This document shows, in pieces, positions 16,199-61,094 of a stretch of 64,000 nucleotides of DNA (within the stretch, counting starts at the first letter, position 1; the number at the start of each line of letters is the position of its first letter). The stretch comes from a bacterium (GTDB lineage: Bacteria; Patescibacteriota; Dojkabacteria; B142; OLB20), in assembly GCA_037138855.1 (NCBI GenBank), contig JBAXHO010000001.1:6105-70104 (forward strand). The letters run 5' to 3'. Below the pieces are notes generated by a model that was given only the letters and a program-made list of their open reading frames with translations, was not told the origin of the DNA and did no database searches. Made by a program: the position numbers and the translations under genes.

Positions 16199-19100
16199 AT
16201 GGAACCGCAGTCTGCTCAAAGTATCAATCATGTTGCTCAAATCCGTAAATATTTCCCGATAATTATCGTTACAGTGGTTGTTTTAGTAGCTGCTTTAGCT
16301 ATTGTTGTGGTACAACGCATTCGCATTAATAACCTGCCAAATACAGGTACTGATAATCCCATTCCTACAGTGCCGCCAACATGTGATTTGGTTTGCGCAG
16401 ATGGACATTTGGATCCAAATATTTGTAGCTGTGTGCCAGATGTCACGTCAATTATTTCAACGAATACACCAATACTTATAATGGGAAACTATTTGTTAAA
16501 AAGTATGAGTGTTAGTCTTGATCAGGCAACTGGAAACAATGTGATTACTTATAAAGTTCAAAATGATGGTACAGCAGAAATCGCAGGGAATAGTTTTCAG
16601 AATACATATTGGATAAATCCCGTTCCAGAGCCAAGTAGTATTAATAATATTCAACCTACTCAATCCTTATTTCAAGCTAAGATTTTAACCAGTCAAAGAT
16701 TAAGTGCTGGTACATCTGGTCTTGGGACTATTTCAATTAATAATTCATCCATACCAGCAGGGGTCTATAAATTATGTATGTGGTACGATAGCTCAAAAGC
16801 CGTTAATGAGGCTAATGAAAATGACAATATTCTCTGTAGTCAAGTTACTCTAGCTATACCAGAAGCACCGGCATGTACCTCATTTACAAATATGTGGATT
16901 AATGATTGTAATAGTACAGGGTTACTCGGCACACCTCAATGTGCTACTACTTCTGATAAAGCAACGATTCATTATAATTCCAATGCTGCAAGTATGAAAT
17001 TTCTGGATGCAACATCTATGCCAGGTATATTGTGTAGTGCAATTCCGGATAGTACTTTTACCGGACAATCACAAATCTATGATGCAAATAATCCGACAAT
17101 TAATTGGACCTTAACACCTGGATTTGGATTAAAAAAGATTTGTGTCAGATTTGAAAATAGTGCTGGATCAAGTAAGTGTGGAGGAACTATTAATTACACG
17201 GGTGTTACTCCAGTTGTTACTAATACAGCAATACCAGTAAGTCCACCTCAATGTACATCATTTCAAAATATGTGGATTGAAGGATGTCAGAGCTGGAACG
17301 CAGCAGATCCAACGGCAAATGCTAGCTGTATCACAAACAATACAAATGTTCAAATTAATTTGAATTCTTCTAATGCTACTACAATGAGGTTTTATGAAAA
17401 GACTGCGAATTTGGATATAGCATGTAGTGCCCTTGATCCTGGAGCATTTCCAGTGGTATTTCAAAGTTATTATCCAACACACAATATTACATTATCATCG
17501 ACACCAGGAGAGAAGCAGGTATGTGTGAGTTTAGGAAATAGTGCAGGGTCAAGCCAATGCGGAGGAAAGATCTGGTTCCAACCATCAATTACTCCTACAA
17601 TTTCTACAATACCTTCACCAACTCCGACACCTCAAGGGGCACCGGAATGTACATCTTTTGTGAATATGTGGCTAGAAAATTGTAAAACTAATCAGATGAC
17701 AGGTCCAGATTGTACAATTAATACAAACAAATTAAATATCAATTTAGCTGTACCCAATATTACAGCTGGTTCGAAGATGAGTTTTTATGAAAAAACGGCT
17801 GCGGATGATCCAAAGGTGCTTTGTAACTCGATTGATCCAAATAAATTTTCTACACCAGTAGATTATGCTACTCAGGTAAAAGATTACCAATTACAAGCCA
17901 CAACTGGACAAGTGAAGGTCTGTGTTCGTTTAGTGAATAGTAGTGGCGCAGCTAGTCAGTGCGGTGGTGGAATAAATATTGTAGAACCTGTGTATCGAAT
18001 TTTAAAAGTTGAATCAGGAGCTGTTGTGACACTTTCCGGTTTGACCTTGATGGGTGGTCGTGCTGATATTGGTGCAGCTATCGAGAATTTTAGTTTTCTT
18101 GAGATTAATAATAGTATTATTGCCAATAATATCGCTGATGTTTATGGTGGCGGTATTTACAATGAGGGATATCTTTCGGTGAGAAATTCTATTTTCCACG
18201 CTAACTCAATAGGAAATACAAATGGAGCAGGAGGAGCGATATATTCGAGAAATACAAATGGCGGATCTTATCTTCAAAACTCTTTGACTATTAGTAAGAC
18301 TATGTTTGAAGGGAATATTGCAGGGACAGGAGGAGGAGGAGCTATTTATTCAGAGGATACTCCAGTAATGATATCAAGAAGCTCTTTCAAATTAAATCTA
18401 GCTCCGAGTGGAGGCGCATTGTATCTAACAGCTATAAGGAGTAACGATATATTAAATAGAATTGATAACTCCACATTTGCAAGTAATACAAGTATGTATG
18501 GTGTAATAAATAATACCGGTTCCAGCAAACATGTCAGGTTAGATTTAATGTTCTCTACTTTTGTATCTGATTTACCAAGCTCAGCAAATAATTTCACACT
18601 TTATTCTGGTACAAATTCAGAAATCAATTTTAGGAATAATATTTTAGCAGCAAAGGGAGCTACTCAATGTAATTCCATTCCAAATAGTTTAGGTGGAAAT
18701 GTAATAATTGATAGTAGCTGTACAGTATTACCTGTAAGTAATAATGATATAGTTGGAACTCAAGTCAACCCACTGTTATCTGCAGAGCAGACCATACCAG
18801 GAAACAAGACAGTATTTTTCTCAATTGATCAAAGTAGTCCAGCATTTAATAATGCGATAAATTGTACAGGTACACCAATCGATCAACTTGAACAAACACG
18901 TCCTCAGGGAAGTGCTTGTGATAGCGGTGCTTATGAATTTCCAATACCAGTAACGACAACTGTGACACCCACGCCTGCTACAGTGGCGATGACTTGTAGT
19001 GAGGGATTTACAGATGATTTCGGGAGATTTATGATCGATAGTAGCAGATGGAAAGTAAATATTGCTGACAGTTTAAAAACGAGTGTGGAAATTAATGCTC

Positions 19101-22100
19101 AGGGAGGTATGCTACTAATTCATATTAAGAAAGATAATTTAAATTTTGATACAACTCCTAATGTTCAGCTACAGCGTTGGATAACAGGAAATTTTAATGT
19201 AGAAGTAGATATGCTCCAATGGCAAACACCATTACCATTAGATAAGAAAGATACAGCAGTGGCTGCATTCCAAATTGTAGATAATACAGGATATGTCAGA
19301 AAAATTTGGTTTGAAGCAGCAACTTTATCAGATGGGGTAACAATTGATCCGAATAATTATCTATTAGCTTCTGATTCATATAAATTTAAAATTTTAGTAC
19401 CAAGATATGGTTCGGTACGATTGAAGGCAATTAAAACAGGTGAAGAAATCTCATATTTTTATACGGTTTTAAATCGTAACGATGGTAGTACGACTACAGG
19501 TTTTATTGGAAAAGATACTGGAGTGAAGGGAGTAAATGTTATGCCAATAATGAAGATGTCATCACCTCTAGCAAATACTTTTGAATTTGATAATTTCACT
19601 TTAAATTGTGATCAGGCAGTACCGGTATGTACATCATTTCAAAATATGTGGATAGAAGGATGTCAGAGTTGGAATGCAGCAGATCCAACGGCAAATGCTA
19701 GCTGTATCACAAACAATGCAAATGTTCAGATTCATTTAAACTCTCCTAATGCCAGTCAAATGCAGTTCTATGAAAAAACTGCAAACCTAAATATACCATG
19801 TAGTGCGCTTGATCCTGGTACATTTCCTCCAGAACAATATTATTCTTCAACACAAAATATTACATTATCATCGACACCAGGAGAGAAGCAGGTATGTGTA
19901 CGATTAACTAATAGTAATGGGTCAAGCCAATGCGGAGGAAAGATCTGGTTCCAACCATCAATTACACCTACAATTTCTACAATACCATCACCAACTCCGA
20001 CACCTCAAGGGGCACCGCAGTGTACATCTTTTGTGAATATGTGGTTGGAGAATTGTAAAACTAATCAGATGACAGGTCCAGCTTGTACAATTAATACAAA
20101 CAAATTAAATATCAATTTAGCTGTACCCAATATTACAGCTGGATCGATGATGAGTTTTTATGAGAGAACGGCAGCAGATGATCCCAAGGCTCTATGTAGT
20201 TCCTTTGATCCAAATAAATTTTCTACACCAGTTGATTATGCTACTCAGGTAAAAGATTACCAATTACAAGCTACAACTGGACAAGTGAAGGTCTGTGTTC
20301 GTTTAGTGAATGGTAGTGGTGCTGCTAGTCAGTGCGGTGGTGGTATTAATATTGTAGAACCTGTGTATCGAATTCTTCAAACTGCTGTAAATACAAATGT
20401 TACACTATCAGGAATTACTCTGCAGGGAGGTAGGGCAGATGGAGTTGGAGGAGCAACTATGGGTGGAGCTATAGCTAACTATGGAATTATGAATTTGAAT
20501 AATTCTATTTTAACAAATAACTCTGCGGTTTCTTCAGGAGGTGCAATATACAACGAAGGTATGCTTAGGATAAACGCTTCAAGAATATTTGCAAATACTA
20601 CTAAAGGGACTGGAATTGGTGGTGGAGGAGCAATTTATAACAATGGTACTCAATTAAACATTAGCACTTCAGCGCTAAATAGTAATCAATCTGGATCTGC
20701 CGGAGGAGGTGCGATTCTTTCTCGAGGTAGTGAGGTAAATATTTTAAAAAGTTCCTTCAAAGATAATATTACTACTGGTTCTGGAGGTGCTCTGAATTTC
20801 TTCAATGATCATGCCAGTATTCTGAAAAACATCATTATTAACTCTACATTTGCAGATAACTCTGTGCAATCAGGAGAAATCTATTCTAATGCAAGTTATC
20901 AATATAGTTTAGTGACAAATATTTCATTTTCAACTTTTACTTCAAAGAGTTCTGGGTCAAATACACTAGGAACAACATTGTTTGCAACTGGAAAGTCGGA
21001 AATGTTTATTAAAAATAACATTATCGCTGATAATCGTACAACTCAATGCAATTCACCTTTATTGATCGATAGTTCTGGAGGTAATGTGGTCTTAGATAGA
21101 TCATGTTTACAAGATCCAAATAATTTGAATGGCGATATTATTCAAAATCCAAAATTACAAGTTGAGGCTTCAAATGTAAATTATTATTCAGTTGCATATC
21201 CTATTGATCTTACTAGTCCAGCTGTTGATGCTGTTAAGGATTGTATGGATCTCGATATTACAACAATTGTCGAAGATCAGTGGGGTAGAGTAAGACCAAA
21301 TGGTAGTCTTTGTGACAGTGGTGCTTATGAATTTCTAATGGATGTGACACCTACTATTTCCACAATACCTTCACCAACCCCAACTCCAGTGGGAGCACCA
21401 GCATGTACATCTTTTGTAAACATGTGGATTGAGAATTGTAATGATAGTCAGGTTCCTGCTGGTCTTTGTACGGTATATAAAAATCATGTAACAATTCATT
21501 TGAATACGACAAATGCTAGTATGATGAGTTTTTATGAAAGGACGGCAGCAGATGATGTCAATGCGTTATGTAGTTCATTTGATCCTACTAAATTTTCGCC
21601 ACGAGTAAATTATGCTTCACAAGTAGATAATTTTCTATTGCATGCAACACCAGGGAAAGTAAAGGTATGTGTACGATTTGAGAATAGTAATGGAGCAGCG
21701 AGTCAGTGTGGTGGAGTGATTATTCTTGGAGATGCAATACCTACAGTGACACCATCCGTTACTCCTGTGCAGCCAAGTAATACTGTGATGCCATCAGCTA
21801 CAGCTGGGGTACAAAATAGTAATACACCGACACCAATTCGACCATCAAATACTGCTTCTGTCCCGACTAATACGAGGCCAGTGGTATATTACAGCGCGAC
21901 ACCTAGACCAACAACAAATGGCATAGTGACACCGACTATAACCGGTACAATTACCATAACTCCCAGTGGTTCGATTACAGTTACTCCGACAATAAAAGTA
22001 ACTGTCACTAATACTGGTACAGTGACACCTACAACAACGAATGGCGGTGGAATTTTAGGAAACTTTGATTTTGGTACATTTTTCTCCGACTTATTAAGTG

Positions 22101-22240
22101 GTAAGGCTTCACCATGGGGTTATCTTGGAGTAGCGCTTTGTTGCTTGTTCTGGTTGATATTGCTCTTATTATTAGTAGGATTGTTACGTCGCAGAAAAGA
22201 TGAAAATGGTGCCAATGCCATGTTTACTAATCAGATTTAG
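16199..22240 (+). CDS. Giant (2013 aa) surface adhesin: N-terminal TM, 6 copies of a ~120-aa 4-Cys domain (CTSFxNMW...QCGG), two polymorphic-membrane-protein (Pmp GGAI/FxxN) beta-helix regions, a lectin/LamG-like domain, a Thr/Pro stalk, and a C-terminal TM with RRRK stop-transfer
   Basis: Repeated GGAIY / GGGIYN / FHAN / FEGN / FKLN motifs. Six CTSF(Q/V/T)NMW(I/L)E..C modules. C-terminal TPTITGTITITPSG...LGVALCCLFWLILLLLLVGLLRRRK. Confidence 0.8.
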   Translation: MEPQSAQSINHVAQIRKYFPIIIVTVVVLVAALAIVVVQRIRINNLPNTGTDNPIPTVPPTCDLVCADGHLDPNICSCVPDVTSIISTNTPILIMGNYLLKSMSVSLDQATGNNVITYKVQNDGTAEIAGNSFQNTYWINPVPEPSSINNIQPTQSLFQAKILTSQRLSAGTSGLGTISINNSSIPAGVYKLCMWYDSSKAVNEANENDNILCSQVTLAIPEAPACTSFTNMWINDCNSTGLLGTPQCATTSDKATIHYNSNAASMKFLDATSMPGILCSAIPDSTFTGQSQIYDANNPTINWTLTPGFGLKKICVRFENSAGSSKCGGTINYTGVTPVVTNTAIPVSPPQCTSFQNMWIEGCQSWNAADPTANASCITNNTNVQINLNSSNATTMRFYEKTANLDIACSALDPGAFPVVFQSYYPTHNITLSSTPGEKQVCVSLGNSAGSSQCGGKIWFQPSITPTISTIPSPTPTPQGAPECTSFVNMWLENCKTNQMTGPDCTINTNKLNINLAVPNITAGSKMSFYEKTAADDPKVLCNSIDPNKFSTPVDYATQVKDYQLQATTGQVKVCVRLVNSSGAASQCGGGINIVEPVYRILKVESGAVVTLSGLTLMGGRADIGAAIENFSFLEINNSIIANNIADVYGGGIYNEGYLSVRNSIFHANSIGNTNGAGGAIYSRNTNGGSYLQNSLTISKTMFEGNIAGTGGGGAIYSEDTPVMISRSSFKLNLAPSGGALYLTAIRSNDILNRIDNSTFASNTSMYGVINNTGSSKHVRLDLMFSTFVSDLPSSANNFTLYSGTNSEINFRNNILAAKGATQCNSIPNSLGGNVIIDSSCTVLPVSNNDIVGTQVNPLLSAEQTIPGNKTVFFSIDQSSPAFNNAINCTGTPIDQLEQTRPQGSACDSGAYEFPIPVTTTVTPTPATVAMTCSEGFTDDFGRFMIDSSRWKVNIADSLKTSVEINAQGGMLLIHIKKDNLNFDTTPNVQLQRWITGNFNVEVDMLQWQTPLPLDKKDTAVAAFQIVDNTGYVRKIWFEAATLSDGVTIDPNNYLLASDSYKFKILVPRYGSVRLKAIKTGEEISYFYTVLNRNDGSTTTGFIGKDTGVKGVNVMPIMKMSSPLANTFEFDNFTLNCDQAVPVCTSFQNMWIEGCQSWNAADPTANASCITNNANVQIHLNSPNASQMQFYEKTANLNIPCSALDPGTFPPEQYYSSTQNITLSSTPGEKQVCVRLTNSNGSSQCGGKIWFQPSITPTISTIPSPTPTPQGAPQCTSFVNMWLENCKTNQMTGPACTINTNKLNINLAVPNITAGSMMSFYERTAADDPKALCSSFDPNKFSTPVDYATQVKDYQLQATTGQVKVCVRLVNGSGAASQCGGGINIVEPVYRILQTAVNTNVTLSGITLQGGRADGVGGATMGGAIANYGIMNLNNSILTNNSAVSSGGAIYNEGMLRINASRIFANTTKGTGIGGGGAIYNNGTQLNISTSALNSNQSGSAGGGAILSRGSEVNILKSSFKDNITTGSGGALNFFNDHASILKNIIINSTFADNSVQSGEIYSNASYQYSLVTNISFSTFTSKSSGSNTLGTTLFATGKSEMFIKNNIIADNRTTQCNSPLLIDSSGGNVVLDRSCLQDPNNLNGDIIQNPKLQVEASNVNYYSVAYPIDLTSPAVDAVKDCMDLDITTIVEDQWGRVRPNGSLCDSGAYEFLMDVTPTISTIPSPTPTPVGAPACTSFVNMWIENCNDSQVPAGLCTVYKNHVTIHLNTTNASMMSFYERTAADDVNALCSSFDPTKFSPRVNYASQVDNFLLHATPGKVKVCVRFENSNGAASQCGGVIILGDAIPTVTPSVTPVQPSNTVMPSATAGVQNSNTPTPIRPSNTASVPTNTRPVVYYSATPRPTTNGIVTPTITGTITITPSGSITVTPTIKVTVTNTGTVTPTTTNGGGILGNFDFGTFFSDLLSGKASPWGYLGVALCCLFWLILLLLLVGLLRRRKDENGANAMFTNQI

Positions 22241-30530: not shown

Positions 30531-31034
30531 ATGTCCCGAAAATACGAAGCGGAATTTAATACATTTTATCAGAAAAGTTTTTTAGTTTTAATCAAGTATT
30601 TTTTAAGACGAGTACCGAAGTTGGTTGATGCTGAAGATTTGACAGCTGAAACATTTATTGTAATCTGGGAAAATTGGGAGAAGATTGAAAAAGAAACCAG
30701 GCAGAATTTTCTTTTTGGCATTGCCCGAAATAAGTTAAATACATATTTGAGAAAAAAATATCAACTTGAGATAAGAACCCGAGAATTTGATGAGAATACT
30801 GATCTAGAAATAGTTTCTGAGCAAAGAATTAATCCGGGAAATGCTAATTTGAAAAATATTTTAAGTGAATTAGTTAATCAGTTATCAGAACGGGAACAGT
30901 TTTTGATCAAAGCTAAATATATGAAGCACAAGACTTTTCGGGAATTGGCAGCCGAACTCAAGATTACTATCAATAATGCCAAAGTGATTCATAATCGTTT
31001 AATTAAAAACTTAAACAATCATGGCAACAAATGA
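30531..31034 (+). CDS. ECF-type RNA polymerase sigma factor (sigma-70 regions 2 and 4)
   Basis: Region 2 FLFGIARNKLNTYLRKK; region 4 SEREQFLIKAKYMKHKTFRELAAELKITINNAKVIHNRLIKNL. Confidence 0.8.
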   Translation: MSRKYEAEFNTFYQKSFLVLIKYFLRRVPKLVDAEDLTAETFIVIWENWEKIEKETRQNFLFGIARNKLNTYLRKKYQLEIRTREFDENTDLEIVSEQRINPGNANLKNILSELVNQLSEREQFLIKAKYMKHKTFRELAAELKITINNAKVIHNRLIKNLNNHGNK

Positions 31035-31365
31035 TTTAAACCACAATTTTGAAAAATATCTGGGTGATTCACTCAGTAATTCTGAAGAAAATTTTGATAT
31101 CCAATTAAGTCAGGTACGGGTTTTACAAAAAATAAAGGCAAAAACTCAGCAGTCGAAATGGCTGGTAATATTTAGTTATGGTTATTTAGTGTTGGCGATG
31201 GTAGTTGGACTTATTGTGATTTTTAATTTTAGTCCAACGGGTCTGAATAATTTTAGAATAAATAATACTATAAAAAATATTGATGAACAAAGCCAGGGCT
31301 TAAAAAGCGATGCAGCTGTATTCGACCAGATGGATGCAGATTTGAATGAGCTGGCTGAGCTGTAG
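31021..31365 (+). CDS. Putative anti-sigma factor (single-pass membrane protein), overlapping the sigma gene by 14 nt
   Basis: Position and overlap; single TM helix WLVIFSYGYLVLAMVVGLIVIF. Confidence 0.5.
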   Translation: MATNDLNHNFEKYLGDSLSNSEENFDIQLSQVRVLQKIKAKTQQSKWLVIFSYGYLVLAMVVGLIVIFNFSPTGLNNFRINNTIKNIDEQSQGLKSDAAVFDQMDADLNELAEL

Positions 31366-32155: not shown

Positions 32156-33067
32156 TCACGGACTCCAGTCAGCTTTCACATCATTAACTGCAGTTATTTT
32201 TTTACAGCGGGAATCTTTGGCACAAGCATCACTGGCTGCAGTCCAAACTACTGGAGTACAGTAGCTCACTGTACATTGTGCCTGGGTAGTTTGACGTTGC
32301 ACTGACTGACGGTCACTAGTGCACTGATTGCTACAGGCAATACCCAGACAGACATCAGCACATCCTGTGGCTGAACAGGTGCAAGTACCAGTAGCAGCAG
32401 CTGGTGTATTTGTCGGAGCAGTTGTATTTATCGGAGTAGGGGTTGGTGTATTAGCCACCATTGTAGTAGGACTAGGTCGGACCACAATACTAGGTGCAAT
32501 AGTCAAGGTTGGAGTATTACTGGATGGTAAAATTGTTCCAGGAGTTGGCGAATTAGCTGGAGGTGGATTACTAGTGGTCACAACACATTGGCAACTATTA
32601 TTACAAATTTTATTAGCATTACAGCCTTGATTGGAATAGGGTGGATCACACATTTCTCCTGAATTTAATACGCCATCACCACAAGTGGTGGTACCGGATT
32701 TTTTTTCAGTTTCTAAACGCCAGCAATATAAAACTCTAGAGATGTCATAGATATCAACTTTTTGGTCAATGGTGGTAGCAGATCCCCAGAGATCTGCACG
32801 GGTGTCGCGTGGAGTTACTTGCCAGTTCCAATTTGTCAGTACTAGATTTAAATCATAACTGTCGACCTTATTATCTTTGATGTTGTTGGCTCCGGTAATA
32901 TCAGCTTGAGAGCAGGCAGTATCCTGGGTTTGAATTAATTTCGCAAGTAAACGGGGGTCAAGACTTCCAATTTTGAGAAGCATCCAACTAGAACCAATAG
33001 TTACTAAACTTATAGCAATAGTGGAAACCAGAAAGTATAAATTTTTCTTTTTTAGTTTGATCTTCAA
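32156..33067 (-). CDS. Secreted dockerin-like (duplicated Ca-binding segment), Cys-rich and TP-rich protein
   Basis: Two dockerin-like segments: ADITGANNIKDNKVDSYDLNLVLTNW and ADLWGSATTIDQKVDIYDISRVLYCW. Then Cys-rich modules and a PTPT stalk. N-terminal TM/signal. Confidence 0.5.
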   Translation of the reverse strand: MKIKLKKKNLYFLVSTIAISLVTIGSSWMLLKIGSLDPRLLAKLIQTQDTACSQADITGANNIKDNKVDSYDLNLVLTNWNWQVTPRDTRADLWGSATTIDQKVDIYDISRVLYCWRLETEKKSGTTTCGDGVLNSGEMCDPPYSNQGCNANKICNNSCQCVVTTSNPPPANSPTPGTILPSSNTPTLTIAPSIVVRPSPTTMVANTPTPTPINTTAPTNTPAAATGTCTCSATGCADVCLGIACSNQCTSDRQSVQRQTTQAQCTVSYCTPVVWTAASDACAKDSRCKKITAVNDVKADWSP

Positions 33068-35625: not shown

Positions 35626-36113
35626 GGGGATGTATGGCTTCGACAGGGAATATTACTGGTTTTTGGCAAGCCGAGGTTTTTGGATACGGAGTCCTCGTAA
35701 AACAAACTGGTCCTCCGGTTATTTTGACCGGGCCGCATAATAAGCGTCAAAACCAAATTTCAAGATTTCGTTGCTGGCGTACAGGGCACAGTTGCAGCTA
35801 TCGCTGCTTCCTTTGCTCCTGCATTAGCTTTCAACGGAGTTGTTGCCTAAACTGGAGTTTCTCCAGGGATAAGCGCGAAAGCGCGGTAACCTTCTAGTGT
35901 TCTTCTCTCCTGATGGGAGGCACTAGGAGAAACATAGTCAGGATACAAGACTTAGCAATAGCATTCTGCTAAGTCCCACGCAAAATGTCTGCTGGCGGGA
36001 ATTGGTTTTAGCTTACTTCTATCAACTTCTCGTCTAAAAATCCAAGTAAGCTACGCTTGTACACTGAGAATCGGTAAGTTTTCTGGACGCGGGTTCGATC
36101 CCCGCCATCTCCA
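35626..36113 (+). ncRNA. ssrA: tmRNA (ssrA), one-piece, CCA not encoded; unusually long (~488 nt)
   Basis: 5' end GGGGAUGUAUGGCUUCGACAGGG (acceptor plus tRNA-like D region). PK1-like GCCGAGG...CCUCGUAAAAC. Ala-rich tag frame ...GTVAAIAASFAPALAFNGVVA followed by UAA. 3' end GGACGCGGGUUCGAUCCCCGCCAUCUCCA (T-arm plus acceptor). 5' GGGGAUG pairs with 3' CAUCUCC. Confidence 0.7.
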
Positions 36114-36127
36114 TAAATTTTGCCTGC

Positions 36128-40263: not shown

Positions 40264-40911
40264 ATGAAAAAAAACCAACAAAAGTACAGTAAAAATCTAG
40301 CAGCATTCAAATCATTTCCTCTTCTTTTGCTAATTGGAGTAGGATTGCTATTTATTTGTTTAGGGTGTTGTTTGAGCTGTGTTTTAATCAGTATTGTCTT
40401 ACCAGATGCGGCTGTAAATCCTGAAAGATCGATTTTGACAACAACACCTACTGCTAATTTTATTCCAACAGATACTGAAGTTCCAAAGTTATTTTATAAA
40501 GTGACTAAGATTATTGATGGAGATACAATAACAGTGGAAACTCTTGGAAAGATTAGATTAATCGGCATTGATTCACCAGAGTCTACGAATGCCCAGGAAT
40601 GTTTTGGAAATGAAGCTAAGATTAAAATTACTGAATTAATAAATGGCCAGAATGTTTTTATTGAACTTGATCCAACACAAGGAGAAAAAGATAAGTATGA
40701 TCGTACTTTGGCGTATGTATTTGTAGCAGGGGTAGAAGAATCAATAAATTTTCAAATGATTCAAACTGGTTATGCCTTTGAATACACTTATAATAAGCCT
40801 TATAAATATCAAGAGTCTTTTCAGAAAGCTGAGGAAGAGGCGAAGAATGAAAAAACAGGGTTGTGGGCAACGATTACGTGTAATTGTCTTTATTCCATAT
40901 TGTTGATATGA
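40264..40911 (+). CDS. Membrane-anchored thermonuclease (staphylococcal nuclease/SNase-like)
   Basis: KIIDGDTITVETLGKIRLIGIDSPES ... DRTLAYVFV ... GLWA; N-terminal TM helix. Confidence 0.8.
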   Translation: MKKNQQKYSKNLAAFKSFPLLLLIGVGLLFICLGCCLSCVLISIVLPDAAVNPERSILTTTPTANFIPTDTEVPKLFYKVTKIIDGDTITVETLGKIRLIGIDSPESTNAQECFGNEAKIKITELINGQNVFIELDPTQGEKDKYDRTLAYVFVAGVEESINFQMIQTGYAFEYTYNKPYKYQESFQKAEEEAKNEKTGLWATITCNCLYSILLI

Positions 40912-40958: not shown

Positions 40959-41402
40959 ATGGATATTTTATATTTTCTTCTTGTTTGGGTGGTGTTTGGT
41001 TTTGTATTTGAAATGATAGCTGGCTGGAAACAAATATCAAATGAAGATATCAATATATTAAAACAACTGACTCCAATTTATATCAAACACTTTAGTAGTA
41101 TTTGGATTAATTGGATAGGTTATCGAGGGTGTATTGTGGTGAAATTTTATCCTCAGGGCATATTTCTCAAACCATATTTGATTTTTACTGTATTGAATAA
41201 AGGTATATTCTTAAGTTATAAGAAGATGATTTTTGATGCTCCAGATAGTAGTTTCCTGAATTTTTTTCATCCCAAAACAAGCATTACATATAATGGTAGA
41301 GTTTTATACCTGGATTCAGCCTCGTGGGAAATGGTAAAAAAAGAGTATGATCAGTTCAAAACAAAGTTGATTAATACAGCAACGCAGTCAAATTTATCAT
41401 GA
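40959..41402 (+). CDS. Hypothetical membrane protein
   Basis: 147 aa with an N-terminal TM helix. Confidence 0.35.
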   Translation: MDILYFLLVWVVFGFVFEMIAGWKQISNEDINILKQLTPIYIKHFSSIWINWIGYRGCIVVKFYPQGIFLKPYLIFTVLNKGIFLSYKKMIFDAPDSSFLNFFHPKTSITYNGRVLYLDSASWEMVKKEYDQFKTKLINTATQSNLS

Positions 41403-41723: not shown

Positions 41724-43211
41724 TTAGTACCTCACACTCTTCAAAACCTCCGCAGCTTCCTGAGCAACTATGGTATCTGGAGTGCAATCCTGAGAAATGG
41801 GCTTGAAGTTTAGATCAGTTTTACCAAAACCGGAAGATTCAAAATCAATAGTGTATTTATTGTTGACTAAATAGACATAGGACTCAAATAAAGTTGAAAT
41901 ATAATATGTTGGCTTATCATAATTATCTGGTTCGCCTTCTCCTGACTGGAAATATTGAAATTTTTGCTGAGAATTATTAATTGCAAATGTTTTATCCAAT
42001 TTGGGGTCGGCAATAGTTCCAGGCCAGTAACCTTTTTTTAATTGGGTAAAATCAGTATCTCTCATATCGAAGAAAATTTCGTAAGAGCCAAGTACTTTAC
42101 CTTGTGTACAGTTTTCCCCAACTGGTGATCTGAAAACAATAGTTTTCGGATCGATACTTGTATCTAGAACCCAAGTTGGTGGATATTTCAGACTAAATGG
42201 AAAAGCATTATTGGTGTATGATTGCCAATTAGAGGTATCTATTCCTGCTGTCGGACTGACAACTGTATTAGTCGGAGTAGCTGTCAAGTCAGTTGGTATT
42301 ATTGAAGAAGGAGTAAGAGTAATTGTAGGTGAAATTATGGCTTTGGGTGTAGATTTTTCATTTTTAACTGTAATAAAGGCGATAGAGGCAGTGGCAACAG
42401 CGATAACTGGAAGAATGATCACTGCCAATTTAACAGCAATTGCAGTAGCTTTGGCAGTGGTAACTGCAGTACTTAGATGATTTGCAGAAATAGTTTTCGG
42501 ATTCATTTTTGTTAATGTGCTAAATTGAAAATTATTAAGTTTGGTAATTACCAAATCTGATAAAGTTGTTAAAAAAGTTGGATCGGGAGCTAAAGTTAAA
42601 GCTGATTTTAATTGTTTGATCCCGATTAAGATTAAGAGAGGATTGATACTGTAAAATTTCTTGTAGTCTTTTTTCGCAAGCATATTTTGTAAACTTTTCA
42701 CCCCACGATGGAACTTGCTGATAGCTGTTGACTGATTTACATTTAAAAATTCCGCAATTTCTTTAAATTTCATATCTTCCCAGATTTTCAAAGTAATAAT
42801 TTCTCGAGATTCTGGATCCAGTTGAAATATCAGTTCTTTCAGTAACTTTTGTTGTTCTGTATCAACTGCTTGTTCTTCGAGTGGTTTTTCGTCAAGGTCT
42901 ACCAGATATTCTTCCTGAAGATCGGTTTCGACACTTAAGTCATTTTTTGTGACAATATTTTGATAAATAAGATTACGGGCAATTTGTAAAAACCAATATT
43001 TAATGGAAATACCACGCCATTCGAAAGTAGAGATTTTTTCGAGGGCAACTAGAAAAGTCTTGGAAGTCAGATCTTCTGCTTGTTCTTTGTTACCACTGAC
43101 TGAATATGTGTAGCGATAGATGTCTTTGGTAAAATTCTGATAAAGCTCACTAAACGCAGTCTTATTAGTGCGACATTCTGCAATTAACTTTTGTTCTTGT
43201 TCGAGTTGCAT
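41724..43211 (-). CDS. Sigma-70 family (ECF-like) sigma factor fused to a TM segment and a C-terminal extracytoplasmic domain
   Basis: Region 2 TFLVALEKISTFEW...YWFLQIARN; region 4 ESREIITLKIWEDMKFKEIAEFLNVNQSTAISKFHRGVKSL; TM AIAVKLAVIILPVIAVATASIAFITV; then a ~200-aa TP-rich outside domain. Confidence 0.7.
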   Translation of the reverse strand: MQLEQEQKLIAECRTNKTAFSELYQNFTKDIYRYTYSVSGNKEQAEDLTSKTFLVALEKISTFEWRGISIKYWFLQIARNLIYQNIVTKNDLSVETDLQEEYLVDLDEKPLEEQAVDTEQQKLLKELIFQLDPESREIITLKIWEDMKFKEIAEFLNVNQSTAISKFHRGVKSLQNMLAKKDYKKFYSINPLLILIGIKQLKSALTLAPDPTFLTTLSDLVITKLNNFQFSTLTKMNPKTISANHLSTAVTTAKATAIAVKLAVIILPVIAVATASIAFITVKNEKSTPKAIISPTITLTPSSIIPTDLTATPTNTVVSPTAGIDTSNWQSYTNNAFPFSLKYPPTWVLDTSIDPKTIVFRSPVGENCTQGKVLGSYEIFFDMRDTDFTQLKKGYWPGTIADPKLDKTFAINNSQQKFQYFQSGEGEPDNYDKPTYYISTLFESYVYLVNNKYTIDFESSGFGKTDLNFKPISQDCTPDTIVAQEAAEVLKSVRY

Positions 43212-43341
43212 GATTGGTAAATAACTAGTTATATAATCCGATATTTTATATACGAGTACAACTTAATTTAAGTGATTACTGTCTTTTAAATGAATGAGGT
43301 GGAAATTTATCCACCTCATTGTGATTCATATATTTTGGTTT

Positions 43342-43716
43342 TTAAAATTTGGCACAAACGACGCAGGTAGTTACCTGAATTGAGCTGGCAGATTTATTAT
43401 TCCAAACACACTTCATACCAGGCTGTTCATAAGTAAGATTTTGTGGAGAACAACCAAGTTGAAAAATATTATCGATGCCACCAGTGTGGTAGCTATAGAC
43501 TGAAATTACTTTTTTACCTGTGGAACAATATGAAGCGATGGTATTCCAGCTATTGGGATGCACATAAGTAGGATTGGAGCAAATTGTTTCATAATTGCTT
43601 GTAACTGGGATAGATGGTAGTGGCATTTGAGTAGCTGCCTTGCTGGGTCTCAAATATACTGCGCTGATAACTAAGATAACTGCTGTTGCACTCACGACGA
43701 GAAGTTTTTTATACAT
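43342..43716 (-). CDS. Small secreted Cys-rich protein
   Basis: Signal peptide; 7 Cys in a 100-aa mature region; sits upstream in the same orientation as the sigma-fusion gene. Confidence 0.4.
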   Translation of the reverse strand: MYKKLLVVSATAVILVISAVYLRPSKAATQMPLPSIPVTSNYETICSNPTYVHPNSWNTIASYCSTGKKVISVYSYHTGGIDNIFQLGCSPQNLTYEQPGMKCVWNNKSASSIQVTTCVVCAKF

Positions 43717-44694: not shown

Positions 44695-44949
44695 CTAATA
44701 ATGAAAGCGACAGGAAATGACAGTTATCTGATCAGTCCGATTACTGTAAATCAGTCTATGTTCGTGGGTGATTCTTCGTGAATAGTAGCCAGCAAGATTG
44801 CCAACCAATTTTTCTGGTTTACCAATACCGGTAAGGGGACTTTGTTCAATTTCTCTGAGAAGAAACTTTATCCGTAAAAAAATTCTATTGTCCTTTTTCT
44901 TCCAGTAAAATAGATCTTTTGCAGCTAGTTTAGTAAAAGTGATTATCAT
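44695..44949 (-). CDS. yoeB: YoeB/Txe-family type II toxin
   Basis: KDLFYWKKKDNRIFLRIKFLLREIEQSPLTGIGKPEKLVGNLAGYYSRRITHEHRLIYS ... CRFHY is very similar to the YoeB consensus. Confidence 0.8.
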   Translation of the reverse strand: MIITFTKLAAKDLFYWKKKDNRIFLRIKFLLREIEQSPLTGIGKPEKLVGNLAGYYSRRITHEHRLIYSNRTDQITVISCRFHY

Positions 44950-45203
44950 AAATTATCCAGATCAATAGCTACAACATTTCCTAATTTTACATCTTTAATG
45001 GAATCTTTGAGATGTTTGGCATTATTTGGATTGGAAAGCAGATAAAGGGTTTCTGCCATTGCCGAATATTGGTCAGCAGCAAGTACCACTACATCATCAC
45101 CATGTCGTCTGGAGATAGTAGTAACTGTTTTATTATTGGCAACATCATCTAAAGTCGCTTTGAGATTTTGTCTTGCTTGAGTATAAGAAATTTTGTTATC
45201 CAT
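44946..45203 (-). CDS. yefM: YefM/Phd-family antitoxin (4-nt overlap with yoeB)
   Basis: ISYTQARQNLKATLDDVANNKTVTTISRRHGDDVVVLAADQYSAMAETLYLL. Confidence 0.8.
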   Translation of the reverse strand: MDNKISYTQARQNLKATLDDVANNKTVTTISRRHGDDVVVLAADQYSAMAETLYLLSNPNNAKHLKDSIKDVKLGNVVAIDLDNL

Positions 45204-48173: not shown

Positions 48174-50540
48174 TTAGTTTTCATTTCCCTCAGTAAACTG
48201 TGTTTCTCTGATATTCTGAATATTGGAATAGCTGAGTAAGTCCCCGAAGAGATACATGTATTTCGTACCATCATAATAAAATGCTTCTGCTGGAGCTAGG
48301 GCATTTTTTTCTCCGGTTAGATTACGTCCAAATCCTGAGATAATTGGTGCTGGATTAGTGAGGGTAGTTATGTTGGCATTGACGATTAAGCCACCTTTTA
48401 AGAATAAGCCATCATTTTGTGTATCGTTAGGAATATTAATATTAGCTGTAATTATAAAAGCCTGAACCTGGTCATAGTTTGCATTAGAAGTACCGTTTGT
48501 TTTATTTGTGCCTTCGTTAATTGTCGTGGTGTCGCTTACTACAAACAAACAGGCACTAGAAGAGTTGTCAGTAAAATCCGGGTTGATGATAAGTTGATTA
48601 ACAAGAAAAATTGTTTTAGAGTTGCAACTTGAATTGGATTCAAGCGTAAGCTCTGGAATTGATACGACAAAGGGATTAGCATTATTGTAACCACTACAAA
48701 TTGAACTTAGTAAGTCAGCCGAATTGACATTTAAGGTCTGATTATCCAGAGTAGAACAAAAAGTATTTTGAGAGGTGGCTTTGGCTTTGACTGTAGTATT
48801 AAAATATTCAATCCAGGAATTGGTATTACTATTGCGGGTTTTGTAGTTCAAATCTGTATAAGACTGATTGGTATAACTATTGACAGACATGGGTAAACTT
48901 TTGGAAGTGATAGTAGACAATCCTGTATAAGTAGATAAGAAAGCTGGTTGATCAGCAAGTGAAGGAATATTTGTATTTGTTGTGATTTTACTTGGCGCCT
49001 TCACTCCTAGTAAAAAGTCAAAACTATTACTAAATGCCTCACCATTCATGGTCATCAGCCAAGGGTCGCTCATTTGATTGAGAGAAACTGAGGTAGCATG
49101 AATATTACAGGCCTGGTCTTTGACACTCCAGTCGATCCGGAGTGAGCTATAGCTACTCCCTTCAGAAATCGAATAATTTTTTGAAGTGGTACTGGTGATC
49201 TGGGAAAAGAAGTCTGATTTAGGTGTGGTCTGATTATCTAAAGTGAAGGTATGAGATTGACCATCGCTGGAGATGGTGGAATTAGCTGTAACTCCATTAG
49301 CGGTTCCGGTAGTAGTTCCGGAAATAATGCTATTTACTTCATCCGAAATTGTGAAATTCACTGTGAAACCTGAAGTTGAGGCATTAGTAATCCCGAGATT
49401 AATTGCTGGATCTGTGAGATCTACTCGCCAGAGAGTGGGATTACTTTGATCCCAGGAATATGCCCCCTTTTTATCTGCAGCAACTGTATATACTGTGAGT
49501 GGATCTTGATCAAAGATATTAGTTCCATTATCGAGGAATCCTACTTTCCAGGTTAATTTCACTTGGGTTCCGGAGACATCCTGGTTGGCCATGAGCATTA
49601 CCCAAGATGTAAAGTTACTATTACCTTCCACTACGTTTCCATTTGTTGGGTCAATCGTGCAGATTGATTGGGCACCATTATTTTTATCGGTGCAGATAGC
49701 TCTATTTGGAATGATATCTGCAAGACTAGAAGTAAAAGTTTCTGGAGCGGTATAATATAAATATTGGTAACTGCCCGGTCCGTTTTTTTTGACACGGATA
49801 TAGGCACCACCTTCTGCTCTGGTATTCCAGCCCAGTGCAGGCTCTGGTGATATCCAGAAGCCCATGCGGTCTAAGTCAGTATTGCCATCAGCATCATTAT
49901 GATATGTGATGACAGTGAGTGGATTATTGGCAGGATTGGTTTGACTTGTACTCAGTATATTAGCGTTACTTCCGCTATTCGTTGCCAGTTTACCTGACCA
50001 GTTAGGAAAACCGGAACTACAAGTCGAAGTATTGGTTATTTCTGAAGTAGAATCGGGTACATTATCGATAGGCACCGGAGTATAAGTAGGTCCAGGAGGA
50101 CTGGTCGGCCCTGGAATAGTAGGCGTAGGGCTAGGACTAGGCCACATGCAATAGCCATAATTCATCACTGGATTACATACGCGTTTTGTAGGTAACGAAC
50201 AACATCGTGCAGTAAAAATTGCATTTACTTCAGGAACATTTCCGGCAATGAACATTTGGCAATAGGGGGATGGATCATGCTGAAAAGTATCCCCACAATA
50301 TCCTAGAGAGTCTAGGGGGCAACTAACATGATTCCAACTATGTGTGACTGAACAGTATGAATAATTCCATGGATCACAGTAGCCACCACCGAACCAATCA
50401 TCATGATTAGTTCGATAACCTGCCAAAGGGTCCCAACCATGTACTATTTGGGTTTGCATAGTGAATAAGCCCATTAGTATTATAAATGCAAAAATAAAAA
50501 GTTTTGTTTTTAATTTGTTTTTTACCAACAATTGTTGCAT
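48174..50540 (-). CDS. Large secreted/surface hypothetical protein with an N-terminal 12-Cys module and a Pro-rich linker
   Basis: Signal/TM peptide; ...GYCDPWNYSYCSV...SCPLDSLGYCGD...YCQMF...ARCCS...; PSPSPTPTIPGPTSPPGPTYTP; an S/T/N-rich 600-aa domain. Confidence 0.5.
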   Translation of the reverse strand: MQQLLVKNKLKTKLFIFAFIILMGLFTMQTQIVHGWDPLAGYRTNHDDWFGGGYCDPWNYSYCSVTHSWNHVSCPLDSLGYCGDTFQHDPSPYCQMFIAGNVPEVNAIFTARCCSLPTKRVCNPVMNYGYCMWPSPSPTPTIPGPTSPPGPTYTPVPIDNVPDSTSEITNTSTCSSGFPNWSGKLATNSGSNANILSTSQTNPANNPLTVITYHNDADGNTDLDRMGFWISPEPALGWNTRAEGGAYIRVKKNGPGSYQYLYYTAPETFTSSLADIIPNRAICTDKNNGAQSICTIDPTNGNVVEGNSNFTSWVMLMANQDVSGTQVKLTWKVGFLDNGTNIFDQDPLTVYTVAADKKGAYSWDQSNPTLWRVDLTDPAINLGITNASTSGFTVNFTISDEVNSIISGTTTGTANGVTANSTISSDGQSHTFTLDNQTTPKSDFFSQITSTTSKNYSISEGSSYSSLRIDWSVKDQACNIHATSVSLNQMSDPWLMTMNGEAFSNSFDFLLGVKAPSKITTNTNIPSLADQPAFLSTYTGLSTITSKSLPMSVNSYTNQSYTDLNYKTRNSNTNSWIEYFNTTVKAKATSQNTFCSTLDNQTLNVNSADLLSSICSGYNNANPFVVSIPELTLESNSSCNSKTIFLVNQLIINPDFTDNSSSACLFVVSDTTTINEGTNKTNGTSNANYDQVQAFIITANINIPNDTQNDGLFLKGGLIVNANITTLTNPAPIISGFGRNLTGEKNALAPAEAFYYDGTKYMYLFGDLLSYSNIQNIRETQFTEGNEN

Positions 50541-59954: not shown

Positions 59955-61094
59955 ATGATTGAACAAATCTCTGAAAAACCAAGTTTAGAAGCGGTACAGC
60001 CTCTTAATCAAGTTTCAGCTAATTCAGCAGGAGTTACAGAATTATCTCAGCAAAAAGGTAAAAGTAATCAAAAACCTTTATTAATATTGGCTGTGACAAG
60101 TTTGATGCTGTTGATATTTTTATTAATTTGCGGTTTTGTTTGGGCGCTGGTGCGTGCAAGACAAAATAACACTGCCACACAATCCTGTAATTACCAGGGG
60201 ATTAATTATGATAATGGCATTGGTTTTCCGTCTAGTGATGGTTGTAATAGCTGTTCCTGTGCTGCCGGTCAAGTAGTATGTACAGAAATGGCTTGTTTCA
60301 ATCCAACTGAGACACCGGCAGTGACAAAAATGCTTAGTAATCAGCCAACTGTCACTTATGACCAGACAGAACAGAAAAATACTTTGTATCTCGCAGAATT
60401 GAATGGGCAAAAAGTAATTTATACCCGGGTGCAAGGTAACTGGATTTCCTGCGGCGATGCTGCCAAGCCGGCAATTTACAATAGTCTTTCCGCAAAAAAT
60501 GGCTTTCAGTTTGCTGGTGATCCCAGCTGTACTGAGTTTGCTAGTTTGAGTCAGGCACAAAGAATTCTGGAATTTAGCGGGACAGAGCAGTATGATTTTT
60601 ATGATTATTATCAGGTAGATAATTTCTTGTATGTTTCTGTGCTTAAATCAGTCAATCTGGCTAGTTTGGAAGATCATACTTTTAATGAGGTTTATCAAGT
60701 AGATTTAACTACTTTGCAAAAGCAATTATTGTGGACCCGAGAAATTGGTGATGCCAAATATGCCAGCAAAGGGCCAATTCAGTTCCTGCCAGTGACGACA
60801 AATAAATATGTGGTGATGAATGTATTATCTTGCTGGAGTTGTGGTCCGGAAACACCAGATGATGTAATTATTTTGAATATTGCTACCAAAAAAGAATCGC
60901 TGGCAGAACGTGCTACTAATATTATTCTCGGTAGTGGCCAATATACATTCAAGCAGTATATTGATCATGCATATTTTGACATTAATGATAGCAGTAGTTT
61001 TGCGACTTATTGTCACTCAGATCAATACTGGTGTGGCGATGGTGGTAGCTACTGGAAACTAGATAATCTTATTTCGACAAGACCGTTGCCATAA
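59955..61094 (+). CDS. Membrane-anchored secreted protein, paralog family A
   Basis: LYLAELNGQKVIY..., LSCWSCGPETPDDVIILNIATKKESL. Confidence 0.5.
   Translation: MIEQISEKPSLEAVQPLNQVSANSAGVTELSQQKGKSNQKPLLILAVTSLMLLIFLLICGFVWALVRARQNNTATQSCNYQGINYDNGIGFPSSDGCNSCSCAAGQVVCTEMACFNPTETPAVTKMLSNQPTVTYDQTEQKNTLYLAELNGQKVIYTRVQGNWISCGDAAKPAIYNSLSAKNGFQFAGDPSCTEFASLSQAQRILEFSGTEQYDFYDYYQVDNFLYVSVLKSVNLASLEDHTFNEVYQVDLTTLQKQLLWTREIGDAKYASKGPIQFLPVTTNKYVVMNVLSCWSCGPETPDDVIILNIATKKESLAERATNIILGSGQYTFKQYIDHAYFDINDSSSFATYCHSDQYWCGDGGSYWKLDNLISTRPLP

What the first reader, a model, noticed from the sequence alone, without database searches (positions are those of the whole stretch)
41724..43716. Sigma factor physically fused to a membrane anchor and extracytoplasmic sensor domain, preceded by a small Cys-rich secreted protein gene
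A single 495-aa protein combines sigma-70 regions 2 and 4 with a TM helix and a ~200-aa outside domain. Signal perception and sigma activity would thus be in one polypeptide. The co-oriented upstream gene encodes a secreted 7-Cys protein that could be a ligand/partner. A conventional ECF sigma/anti-sigma pair also exists at 30531-31365, so the organism uses both designs.
Basis: partly seen in the sequence, partly recalled or inferred. Interest (0 to 1): 0.5.

Follow-up and report, generated by a model that had tools for sequence, protein, structure and literature searches.

The report
Membrane-tethered ECF sigma factor fusion
One gene in an uncultured bacterium joins an alternative RNA-polymerase sigma factor to a membrane helix and an outside PsbP-like domain; this sensor-plus-regulator design is already known in other bacteria, here with different add-on parts.

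Summary

Eight other metagenomic proteins share the sigma-linker-TM-outside-domain plan, so this is not a frameshift artefact. None of the seven gene contexts examined has a separate anti-sigma gene next to it.

The design principle is known: P. putida IutY (shown experimentally) and the actinobacterial groups ECF48/52/53 (predicted). This protein has none of their defining parts: no zinc-finger anti-sigma motif, no FecR domain and no carbohydrate-binding module.

The most likely mechanism, which is inferred, is sequestration at the membrane followed by proteolytic release.

The upstream "Cys-rich partner" idea is not supported:
- It has 6 Cys, not 7.
- It has no detectable homologue.
- It is absent from relatives' loci.
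- A stable hairpin separates it from the sigma gene.

Verdict: a new variant of a known kind, of modest interest.

The parts
41724..43211 (-). Whole gene: a 495-aa ECF sigma factor with a fused transmembrane C-terminal extension (NCBI MEI7578449.1)
   Evidence: ORF listing. The exact protein is in public collections. The same protein is on 3 contigs in the assembly index.
42948..43166 (-). Sigma region 2 (residues ~16-88), which binds core RNA polymerase and the -10 element
   Evidence: Pfam Sigma70_r2 E 3.6e-11. AF2 pLDDT is 80-93. The closest solved sequence is the ECF sigma 6dxo at E 1.2e-19.
42672..42860 (-). Sigma region 4 (residues ~118-180), the -35 binding helix-turn-helix
   Evidence: Pfam Sigma70_r4_2 E 4.5e-9. 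AF2 pLDDT is 73-84.
42492..42659 (-). Conserved cytoplasmic juxtamembrane linker (residues ~185-240). It has a short hydrophobic helix with an invariant Gly197, then an F-x-P-S-x-x-F-like motif and an amphipathic helix. It is the candidate auto-inhibitory (anti-sigma-like) module.
   Evidence: Family alignment. A leave-one-out profile built from 8 relatives finds it at E 1.7e-7, with the next best window ORF at 0.017. Helices are predicted at 191-201 and 211-234 with low confidence. It does not resemble any PDB sequence or the window's other anti-sigma candidate.
42360..42434 (-). Single transmembrane helix (residues ~260-284, with a mid-helix Pro268 and an Ala/Thr/Ser-rich face)
   Evidence: Hydropathy and Hessa-scale dG of -1.2 kcal/mol. 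Family TM helices are rich in Gly/Pro compared with the anchors of stand-alone homologues.
42258..42359 (-). Pro/Thr/Ser-rich extracytoplasmic spacer (residues 285-318)
   Evidence: Sequence. The same kind of spacer precedes the domain in stand-alone homologues.
41727..42257 (-). Extracytoplasmic PsbP/Mog1-like domain (residues 319-495; Cys368 and Cys476), the presumed sensor or binding module
43293..43320 (-). Perfect 10-bp stem with an 8-nt loop, 22 nt after the stop codon of the upstream gene. It is a probable (U-tract-poor) terminator or RNA-stability element separating the two genes.
   Evidence: Sequence. Folding gives dG -18.6 kcal/mol, z = -5.1, with 0 of 200 shuffles as stable. The consensus terminator scan did not call it because the T-run is weak.
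43342..43716 (-). Upstream co-oriented gene: a 124-aa orphan protein with an N-terminal signal or anchor and 6 Cys. No link to the sigma was found.
   Evidence: No homologue anywhere. No paralogue in the window. Only a sub-threshold Pfam match (Dermatopontin, E 0.022, 15.4 bits against cutoff 28.3).
30531..31365 (+). Context only: a separate 167-aa ECF sigma (30531-31034) and an overlapping 114-aa single-TM protein (31021-31365), a positional anti-sigma candidate
   Evidence: Sigma70_r2 at 34.3 bits for the first. The second matches no family.

Best explanation
The gene encodes a single-pass, membrane-tethered ECF sigma factor. Its C-terminal extension takes the place of a separate transmembrane anti-sigma factor.

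**Shown**
- A complete sigma2-sigma4 core lies in the cytoplasm.
- It is followed by a family-conserved 55-75 aa linker, one TM helix, a Pro/Thr-rich spacer and an extracytoplasmic PsbP/Mog1-like domain.
- The same plan occurs in at least eight other metagenomic proteins.
- No separate anti-sigma gene lies next to any of them.

**Inferred**
1. At rest, the sigma is kept from productive use. The cause is the tether itself, the conserved linker folding back on sigma2/sigma4, or both.
2. Binding or loss of an envelope ligand at the PsbP-like domain exposes the outside part to a site-1 protease.
3. A site-2 (RseP-type) intramembrane protease then cuts the TM helix, which contains helix-breaking residues.
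4. The freed sigma domain joins RNA polymerase.

This is the route shown experimentally for the P. putida sigma/anti-sigma hybrid IutY. The upstream Cys-rich gene is most likely an unrelated, separately terminated neighbour.
For: - **Sigma core:** the domains pass curated cutoffs over the full model length. The closest solved sequences are the ECF sigma of 6dxo, SigE and SigW.
- **Topology:** there is one TM-competent segment in every family member (dG -2.4 to +3.3 kcal/mol). The linker helix is not TM-competent (+5 to +10).
- **Real fusion:** the architecture is conserved in P0002-P0007, P0067 and L005:7211-8602.
- **Linker:** it is a conserved module (leave-one-out E 1.7e-7).
- **No adjacent anti-sigma:** none in 7 of 7 contexts. 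This fits the published rule that C-terminal extensions go with absence of an anti-sigma gene (PMC7826278).
- **TM composition:** family TM helices carry more Gly/Pro than the anchors of stand-alone homologues (4.1 against 1.7 per 19 residues, p = 0.0015). From my own knowledge, helix-destabilising residues are a known requirement for site-2 protease substrates.
- **Precedent:** IutY is released by Prc and RseP (PMC5411451). ECF48/52/53 are predicted to work the same way (PMC8999054).
Against: - No protease gene, cleavage site or target promoter was identified. No HExxH protein of 150 aa or more lies in the window, and the promoter searches found nothing.
- AF2 gave no confident docking of the linker onto the sigma domains (linker pLDDT ~50, pTM 0.37).
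- The linker matches no known anti-sigma domain and has no Cys or His for a zinc-finger motif.
- The window protein's own TM helix has only one Gly/Pro. The Gly/Pro comparison includes non-independent paralogues, and Gly-rich helices also fit a dimerisation role.
- The ECD model is of moderate quality only (pLDDT 65).
- The ligand is unknown. PsbP/Mog1-like domains have many unrelated roles.
- The organism and its envelope type are unresolved.
Confidence: 0.5

Rival explanations
1. The sigma works while still tethered, like the membrane-bound transcription factors ToxR and CadC. Ligand binding outside changes the oligomeric state or the linker conformation, and RNA polymerase holoenzyme forms at the membrane without any proteolysis.
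For: - Family TM helices are rich in Gly and small residues (GxxxG-like patterns), which also suits helix-helix association.
- About 75 residues of flexible, low-confidence linker separate sigma4 from the membrane.
- One relative sits on a 1.13-Mb contig, which hints at small genomes and small cells where DNA is never far from the membrane (the cell-size link is my inference).
Against: - No sigma factor is known to act while integrated in the membrane (my knowledge).
- The only experimentally studied hybrid, IutY, needs proteolytic release (PMC5411451).
- A short hydrophobic helix begins only ~8 residues after sigma4. That would hold sigma4 close to the membrane, which is hard to reconcile with binding to the polymerase flap and to -35 DNA.
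Confidence: 0.15
2. The outside domain is not a sensor. It is a cell-envelope anchoring or structural module that is very common in this kind of organism. The fusion simply parks a sigma pool at the membrane, and control is exerted elsewhere, for example through transcription or general turnover.
For: - The same domain occurs mostly in stand-alone single or tandem copies.
- None of the 20 homologues scanned carries a signalling domain.
- The outside domains of family members vary widely in number and sequence.
Against: - The sigma-linker-TM-outside-domain order is kept across about 25-35% identical proteins from different samples.
- No anti-sigma gene lies nearby in any of them, which argues that the extension is the regulator.
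- Variable outside domains on a constant transmitter are typical of sensor families (my knowledge).
Confidence: 0.15
3. One reading: the upstream 124-aa Cys-rich secreted protein is the ligand or partner of the outside domain, and the two genes form one functional unit.
For: - The two genes are co-oriented and adjacent, with a 130-bp gap.
- The small protein has an N-terminal signal or anchor and 6 Cys, so both would lie outside the cell.
- The hairpin between them lacks a good U-tract, so read-through is possible.
Against: - The small protein is an orphan with no homologue in 5.8 billion clusters.
- Relatives have unrelated upstream genes: polytopic membrane proteins, a glycogen debranching enzyme and a RidA-type protein.
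- A -18.6 kcal/mol hairpin separates the genes.
Confidence: 0.07
4. Artefact: two genes (a sigma and an anti-sigma or secreted protein) were joined by a sequencing or assembly error.
For: None was found beyond the prior that fusions in MAGs can be errors.
Against: - The reading frame is uninterrupted.
- The identical protein is on 3 contigs in the assembly index.
- Eight other proteins from other samples have the same fused architecture, including the conserved linker that bridges the two halves.
Confidence: 0.02

Closest known systems
IutY of Pseudomonas putida (ECF243 subgroup), a sigma/anti-sigma hybrid of cell-surface signalling
   Same: - An ECF sigma domain in the cytoplasm, one TM helix and an outside regulatory domain in a single polypeptide.
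- No separate anti-sigma factor.
- It is the experimentally supported model for release by a periplasmic protease (Prc) followed by the site-2 protease RseP (PMC5411451, PMC8999054).
   Different: - IutY's extension is a FecR-type anti-sigma, and it signals from a TonB-dependent outer-membrane receptor in response to aerobactin.
- Here there is no FecR domain, the outside domain is PsbP/Mog1-like, no receptor gene lies nearby, and the sigma core is closest to BldN/SigW/SigE-type ECFs rather than FecI.
Actinobacterial ECF52 (SCO4117), ECF48 and ECF53 sigma factors with fused membrane extensions
   Same: An ECF core followed by a cytoplasmic regulatory segment, TM helix or helices, a proline-rich outside spacer and an outside binding domain. 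They are proposed to be activated by proteolytic processing (PMC5826349, PMC8999054).
   Different: - Those groups are defined by a zinc-finger (ZAS-type) anti-sigma segment. ECF52 also has a carbohydrate-binding domain and is reported as exclusive to Actinobacteria.
- Here the linker has no Cys or His at all, there is no carbohydrate-binding hit, and the genome has 35% G+C and is of unresolved taxonomy.
Canonical two-protein ECF sigma with a single-pass anti-sigma (e.g. SigW/RsiW, SigE/RseA), controlled by regulated intramembrane proteolysis
   Same: - The same functional parts in the same membrane order: sigma in the cytoplasm, then an inhibitory segment, one TM helix and an outside sensor.
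- SigW is among the closest solved sigma sequences (5wuq, E 1e-12).
   Different: - Here the parts are covalently joined.
- The inhibitory segment does not resemble known anti-sigma domains.
- After cleavage the remnant stays attached to the sigma, so the final ClpXP-type removal step would have to differ.
PsbP / Mog1-fold extracytoplasmic domains (Pfam PsbP_2 PF18933; cyanobacterial PsbP 2xb3; BT_1490 3hlz; M. tuberculosis MTC28, LpqN; DcrB)
   Same: - The N-terminal strand motif W-x-x-Y-x-N...Y-P-x-x-W and the C-terminal helix are shared with hundreds of anchored homologues.
   Different: - The window protein itself gets no Pfam hit, so it is a divergent member.
That is absence of evidence only.
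Pro-sigma-K of Bacillus subtilis, cleaved by the site-2 protease SpoIVFB (my own knowledge, not checked here)
   Same: The sigma factor itself is a membrane-associated precursor that is activated by an intramembrane metalloprotease.
   Different: Pro-sigma-K is a group-3 sigma with a short N-terminal pro-sequence. It has no TM-spanning C-terminal extension and no outside domain.

Membership tests
ECF (group 4) sigma-70 family | Sigma region 2 and region 4 are present over their full length, and no region 3 or region 1.1 is present | tested here: met
   Pfam Sigma70_r2 scores 43.1 bits (cutoff 24) and Sigma70_r4_2 scores 36.3 bits (cutoff 25.7). No r3 or r1 hit appears. TIGR02937 sigma70-ECF scores 78.6 bits (cutoff 42.9) over model positions 2-165 of 165.
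BldN family ECF (TIGR02952), the best-scoring named subfamily | Score at or above the curated equivalog cutoff (206.45 bits) | tested here: not met
   It scores 100.7 bits. No equivalog or subfamily model reached its cutoff, so the ECF group is unassigned.
ECF52/48/53-type fused sigma/anti-sigma | A zinc-finger (ZAS, H-x3-C-x2-C type) anti-sigma segment between sigma4 and the TM region | tested here: not met
   The only cysteines are C13, C368 and C476, and residues 181-262 contain only one His. No zf-HC2 or RskA hit appears at E<=1.
ECF52/48/53-type fused sigma/anti-sigma | TM helix or helices followed by a proline-rich spacer and an outside domain, with no separate anti-sigma | tested here: met
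   One TM helix, a PT-rich spacer at 285-318 and a folded outside domain. No +1 anti-sigma candidate lies in the window or in the relatives.
ECF52 | A carbohydrate-binding outside domain, and actinobacterial origin | tested here: not met
   The outside domain has a PsbP/Mog1 fold and no CBM hit. The genome has about 35% G+C, and NCBI names it only '[bacterium]'.
IutY-type (FecI/FecR hybrid, ECF243) | A FecR-type anti-sigma domain and a partner TonB-dependent receptor | tested here: not met
   No FecR hit. The neighbouring genes are a GNAT-type ORF, a nuclease, small membrane proteins and a toxin-antitoxin pair, with no receptor.
ECF263 | A C-terminal extension with five or seven TM helices (PMC7826278) | tested here: not met
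   There is one TM-competent segment only.
PsbP_2 / PsbP (Mog1-PsbP fold) domain | A Pfam model hit above the gathering score | tested here: not met
   No Pfam hit for residues 306-495 at E<=1. Homologues found with this region do hit PF18933 and PF01789.
PsbP_2 / PsbP (Mog1-PsbP fold) domain | An alpha-beta-alpha sandwich fold matching solved PsbP/Mog1 structures | tested here: met
   [not shown]
Substrate of regulated intramembrane proteolysis (site-1 and site-2 proteases) | Signal-dependent cleavage outside the membrane, then cleavage within the TM helix by an S2P | not testable with these tools
   There is only indirect support: a type II (N-in) single-pass topology and helix-breaking residues in the family's TM helices. 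No protease gene lies in the window.
Class I/II anti-sigma domain (for the linker, residues 185-240) | Sequence or structural similarity to known anti-sigma domains, and binding to sigma2/sigma4 | tested here: inconclusive
   The linker profile finds no PDB sequence (best E 0.37) and does not match the window's other anti-sigma candidate (hhalign probability 0.1%). AF2 predicts two helices without confident docking. Binding itself cannot be tested here.

The most novel reading that the evidence does not exclude
This is the founding example of an undescribed ECF group from uncultured, small-genome bacteria. In it, a zinc-free, previously unseen juxtamembrane module and a PsbP-like outside domain form a self-contained one-protein transmembrane signalling device. 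In the strongest form of this reading, the sigma acts while still membrane-tethered, or is gated by tether geometry alone rather than by an anti-sigma fold.
Probability: 0.12. Interest if true: 0.6.

Novelty: new variant of a known kind. Interest (0 to 1): 0.3.

Why it matters
- **Scientific interest:** if confirmed, this would add a compact, one-gene transmembrane signalling route (outside domain to RNA polymerase) to the short list of sigma/anti-sigma hybrids. It would come from a poorly known bacterial lineage and use a different inhibitory linker and a different sensor fold from the known cases.
- **Practical interest:** such single-protein switches appeal to synthetic biology as orthogonal sensors. 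They also help in annotating the many 'sigma-70 family' proteins of unusual length found in metagenomes.
- **Limit:** it does not change the current picture of how ECF sigma factors are controlled.

Tried and rejected
- **Profile search for more family members.** I searched the 5.8-billion-protein collection with a profile of sigma4, linker and TM (A3). It returned only four short ordinary ECF sigmas.
- **Genome-contig scans.** The scan with the family alignment failed because no stretch was conserved enough. The scan with the single protein found one unrelated ordinary ECF. Taxonomy and closer relatives stayed out of reach.
- **Organism names.** Cluster look-ups for the window proteins, the relatives and the PsbP-like homologues gave only '[bacterium]' or nothing.
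- **Autoregulated ECF promoter.** Three relatives (L003 and both L005 genes) share AAC-N18/19-CATAT upstream. The window and L001 do not, and scanning the window for AAC-N17-20-C[AG]TAT[AT][AT] found nothing near this locus. I dropped this as unsupported.
- **Sigma-70 promoter and terminator scan.** It gave no more sites than shuffled sequence, and no promoter on the minus strand directly upstream of the sigma gene.
- **Site-2 protease in the window.** No HExxH-containing ORF of 150 aa or more exists there.
- **Linker as a known anti-sigma domain.** No support from PDB sequences, from hhalign against the neighbouring candidate, or from AF2 docking.
- **Second TM helix at 189-207.** This would have put the C-terminal domain in the cytoplasm. 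I rejected it on Hessa-scale energy: +8.6 kcal/mol here and +5 to +10 in the relatives.
- **Dermatopontin-like match of the small protein.** It is below threshold (15.4 against 28.3 bits), so I treat it as chance.
- **AlphaFold-database fold library.** It was unavailable.
Full report
**1. What is there**

ORF 41724..43211 on the minus strand encodes 495 residues with no internal stop. It begins at the first start codon after the upstream in-frame stop.

Pfam places Sigma70_r2 at residues 23-86 and Sigma70_r4_2 at 124-174, both above the curated cutoffs. The general ECF model TIGR02937 is matched over its full length at 78.6 bits against a cutoff of 42.9. No named ECF subfamily reaches its cutoff; the best is the BldN family at 100.7 bits against 206. 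The closest solved sequences are the ECF sigma of 6dxo (E 1.2e-19), SigE and B. subtilis SigW.

AlphaFold models sigma2 (residues 1-88) and sigma4 (118-180) with pLDDT of 73-93. The sigma part is therefore complete and ordinary.

**2. The extension**

After sigma4 come four parts.

- **A linker of about 75 residues.** It starts with a short hydrophobic helix (NPLLILIGIKQL, with an invariant Gly197), followed by an F/L-x-P-S/D-x-x-F motif and an amphipathic helix.
- **One hydrophobic segment, about residues 260-284.**
- **A Pro/Thr/Ser-rich spacer, residues 285-318.**
- **A domain of about 176 residues, residues 319-495.**

On the Hessa biological hydrophobicity scale, the 260-284 segment is membrane-competent (-1.2 kcal/mol) and the linker helix is not (+8.6). 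The same holds in all eight relatives.

Three further observations place the C-terminal domain outside.

- It aligns end to end with many ~200-aa proteins that consist only of an N-terminal signal anchor, a PT-rich linker and this domain.
- Every family member has an even number of cysteines after the TM helix.
- The PT-rich spacer is of the kind seen in those secreted homologues.

**3. Identity of the outside domain**

An exhaustive HMMER search of 1.84 billion representatives with residues 185-495 gave 448 hits at E<=1e-3. Nearly all centre on the strand motif IDTSNWQSYTN..F.FS.KYP..W. Scanned hits carry Pfam PsbP_2 (PF18933) or PsbP, often in tandem copies. None of the 20 scanned carried an anti-sigma or kinase domain.

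**4. Is the fusion real and recurrent?**

The identical protein is called on 3 contigs in the assembly index. One of them, a Logan assembly of run SRR7053653, was retrieved. The sequence is in NCBI as MEI7578449.1, 'MAG: sigma-70 family RNA polymerase sigma factor [bacterium]'.

Eight other proteins of 463-736 aa from other samples have the same order of parts (P0002-P0007, P0067 and L005:7211-8602). They are 22-34% identical overall.

The relationship rests mainly on the sigma core (about 37% pairwise identity) and on the linker. A profile of the linker built without the window sequence finds the window's linker at E 1.7e-7 among all 340 window ORFs, with the next best at 0.017. The outside domains vary: one, two or three units, some Cys-rich, and only weakly alike in single-sequence comparison.

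One relative genome carries two such genes in tandem. An assembly artefact is therefore excluded.

**5. Gene context**

In the window, the gene downstream of the sigma gene is convergent (40959-41402, +). No anti-sigma gene follows it.

In seven contexts of relatives there is no conserved neighbour and no +1 single-TM candidate. The neighbours include an alpha/beta hydrolase, glycoside hydrolases, uracil-DNA glycosylase and a RidA-type protein. This agrees with the published observation that ECFs with C-terminal extensions typically lack a separate anti-sigma gene (PMC7826278).

**6. The upstream Cys-rich gene**

ORF 43342..43716 (-) encodes 124 aa with a hydrophobic N-terminus and six cysteines, not seven.

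- It has no homologue in the 5.8-billion-cluster collection and no paralogue in the window.
- The genes upstream of the relatives are unrelated to it.
- Twenty-two bases after its stop codon lies a perfect 10-bp stem with an 8-nt loop (43320-43293). Its dG is -18.6 kcal/mol and z is -5.1 against shuffles.
- The hairpin lacks a good U-tract, so read-through cannot be excluded.

Nothing supports a ligand or partner role. Adjacency is the only argument for it.

**7. Mechanism**

Shown:
- the architecture;
- the topology;
- the conservation of the linker;
- the absence of a separate anti-sigma gene.

Inferred: the extension does the job of a transmembrane anti-sigma factor, and the sigma is activated by release from the membrane. 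The precedent is IutY of P. putida, a sigma/anti-sigma hybrid trimmed by Prc and then cut by RseP in response to aerobactin. Truncated IutY is constitutively active (PMC5411451; PMC8999054).

One small piece of supporting evidence comes from TM composition. The TM helices of the fused family carry more Gly/Pro than the anchors of stand-alone homologues (4.1 against 1.7 per 19 residues, Mann-Whitney p = 0.0015). From my own knowledge, helix-destabilising residues are needed by site-2 proteases. There are three caveats:
- three of the nine sequences are close paralogues;
- the window protein has only Pro268;
- Gly-rich helices also suit dimerisation.

Whether the linker is a true anti-sigma module is open. 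AF2 predicts two helices with no confident docking. The linker resembles no solved protein sequence and not the window's other anti-sigma candidate. It has no Cys or His for a zinc site.

No protease, cleavage site or target promoter could be identified.

**8. Comparison with what is known**

The kind (an ECF sigma with a fused membrane-spanning regulatory extension) is established:
- IutY;
- ECF48/52/53 in Actinobacteria, defined by a zinc finger, TM helices, a proline-rich spacer and, in ECF52, a carbohydrate-binding domain (PMC5826349);
- ECF263, with 5 or 7 TM helices (PMC7826278).

This protein fails the defining features of each: no zinc finger, no FecR domain, no carbohydrate-binding module, and one TM helix. 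It should not be filed in any of them. It works like them, as far as architecture can tell.

A full-text search for PsbP together with anti-sigma factors found no paper. Searches on ECF extensions and on candidate-phyla bacteria turned up no description of this combination. The library is incomplete, so this is weak evidence of absence.

**9. The other claim in the finding**

The 167-aa protein at 30531-31034 is an ECF-type sigma (Sigma70_r2, 34.3 bits). The overlapping 114-aa protein (31021-31365) has one TM helix and matches no family. 'Both designs in one organism' is therefore plausible but only half verified.

**10. Verdict**

The one-polypeptide sensor-sigma reading is reasonable. The Cys-rich partner idea is not.
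- It is a new variant of a known kind, in a rare family from uncultured bacteria of unresolved taxonomy.
- Interest is about 0.3. The unusual parts are the zinc-free conserved linker and the PsbP-like outside domain. The principle is already in the literature, and no mechanism-level surprise is demonstrated.

Noticed in passing
window 44695-45203 (-): A YoeB-type toxin (83 aa, PF06769, E 3.8e-30) and a Phd/YefM antitoxin (84 aa, PF02604, E 4.2e-18) form an overlapping type II toxin-antitoxin pair, about 1 kb from the sigma locus.
   Followed up: partly
window 35626-36116 (+): A tmRNA gene (Rfam RF00023, 112.7 bits). ARAGORN predicts the tag peptide AAIAASFAPALAFNGVVA.
   Followed up: no
window 16199-22240 (+): A 2013-aa ORF with no Pfam family at E<=1e-4. 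A 788-aa ORF at 48174-50540 (-) likewise has none. Many large proteins in this window are unannotatable.
   Followed up: no
window 59955-61094 (+): A 379-aa ORF has a Pacifastin_I (insect protease-inhibitor) hit just above the Pfam cutoff (28.8 against 27.9 bits, E 1e-6, residues 95-118). This is unusual for a bacterium and may only reflect a Cys-rich motif.
   Followed up: no
window 32156-33067 (-): A 303-aa secreted-looking protein with an N-terminal anchor, a PT-rich stretch and many cysteines. By eye it has two D-x-Y-D-hydrophobic repeats reminiscent of dockerin-like calcium loops. There is no Pfam hit at E<=1, and the resemblance was not tested.
   Followed up: no
window 40264-40911 (+): A membrane-anchored staphylococcal-nuclease homologue (PF00565, E 5.2e-24) with an N-terminal TM helix and spacer. 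It is another example of the anchor-spacer-domain design that is common in this genome.
   Followed up: no
L005 5001-7028 and 7211-8602 (+): A relative genome (GCA_054922035.1, 1.13-Mb contig) carries two fused sigma-TM-outside-domain genes in tandem (675 and 463 aa). Their upstream regions are nearly identical: AAC-TTTTTT-N-TCAAACATATTAA[GA]TAG. This may be a shared, perhaps autoregulated, promoter.
   Followed up: partly
window 6563-9100 (-): An 845-aa protein that joins an AMP-binding (adenylation) domain, a phosphopantetheine carrier and an acyltransferase domain. It looks like a stand-alone lipid- or peptide-modifying enzyme.
   Followed up: no
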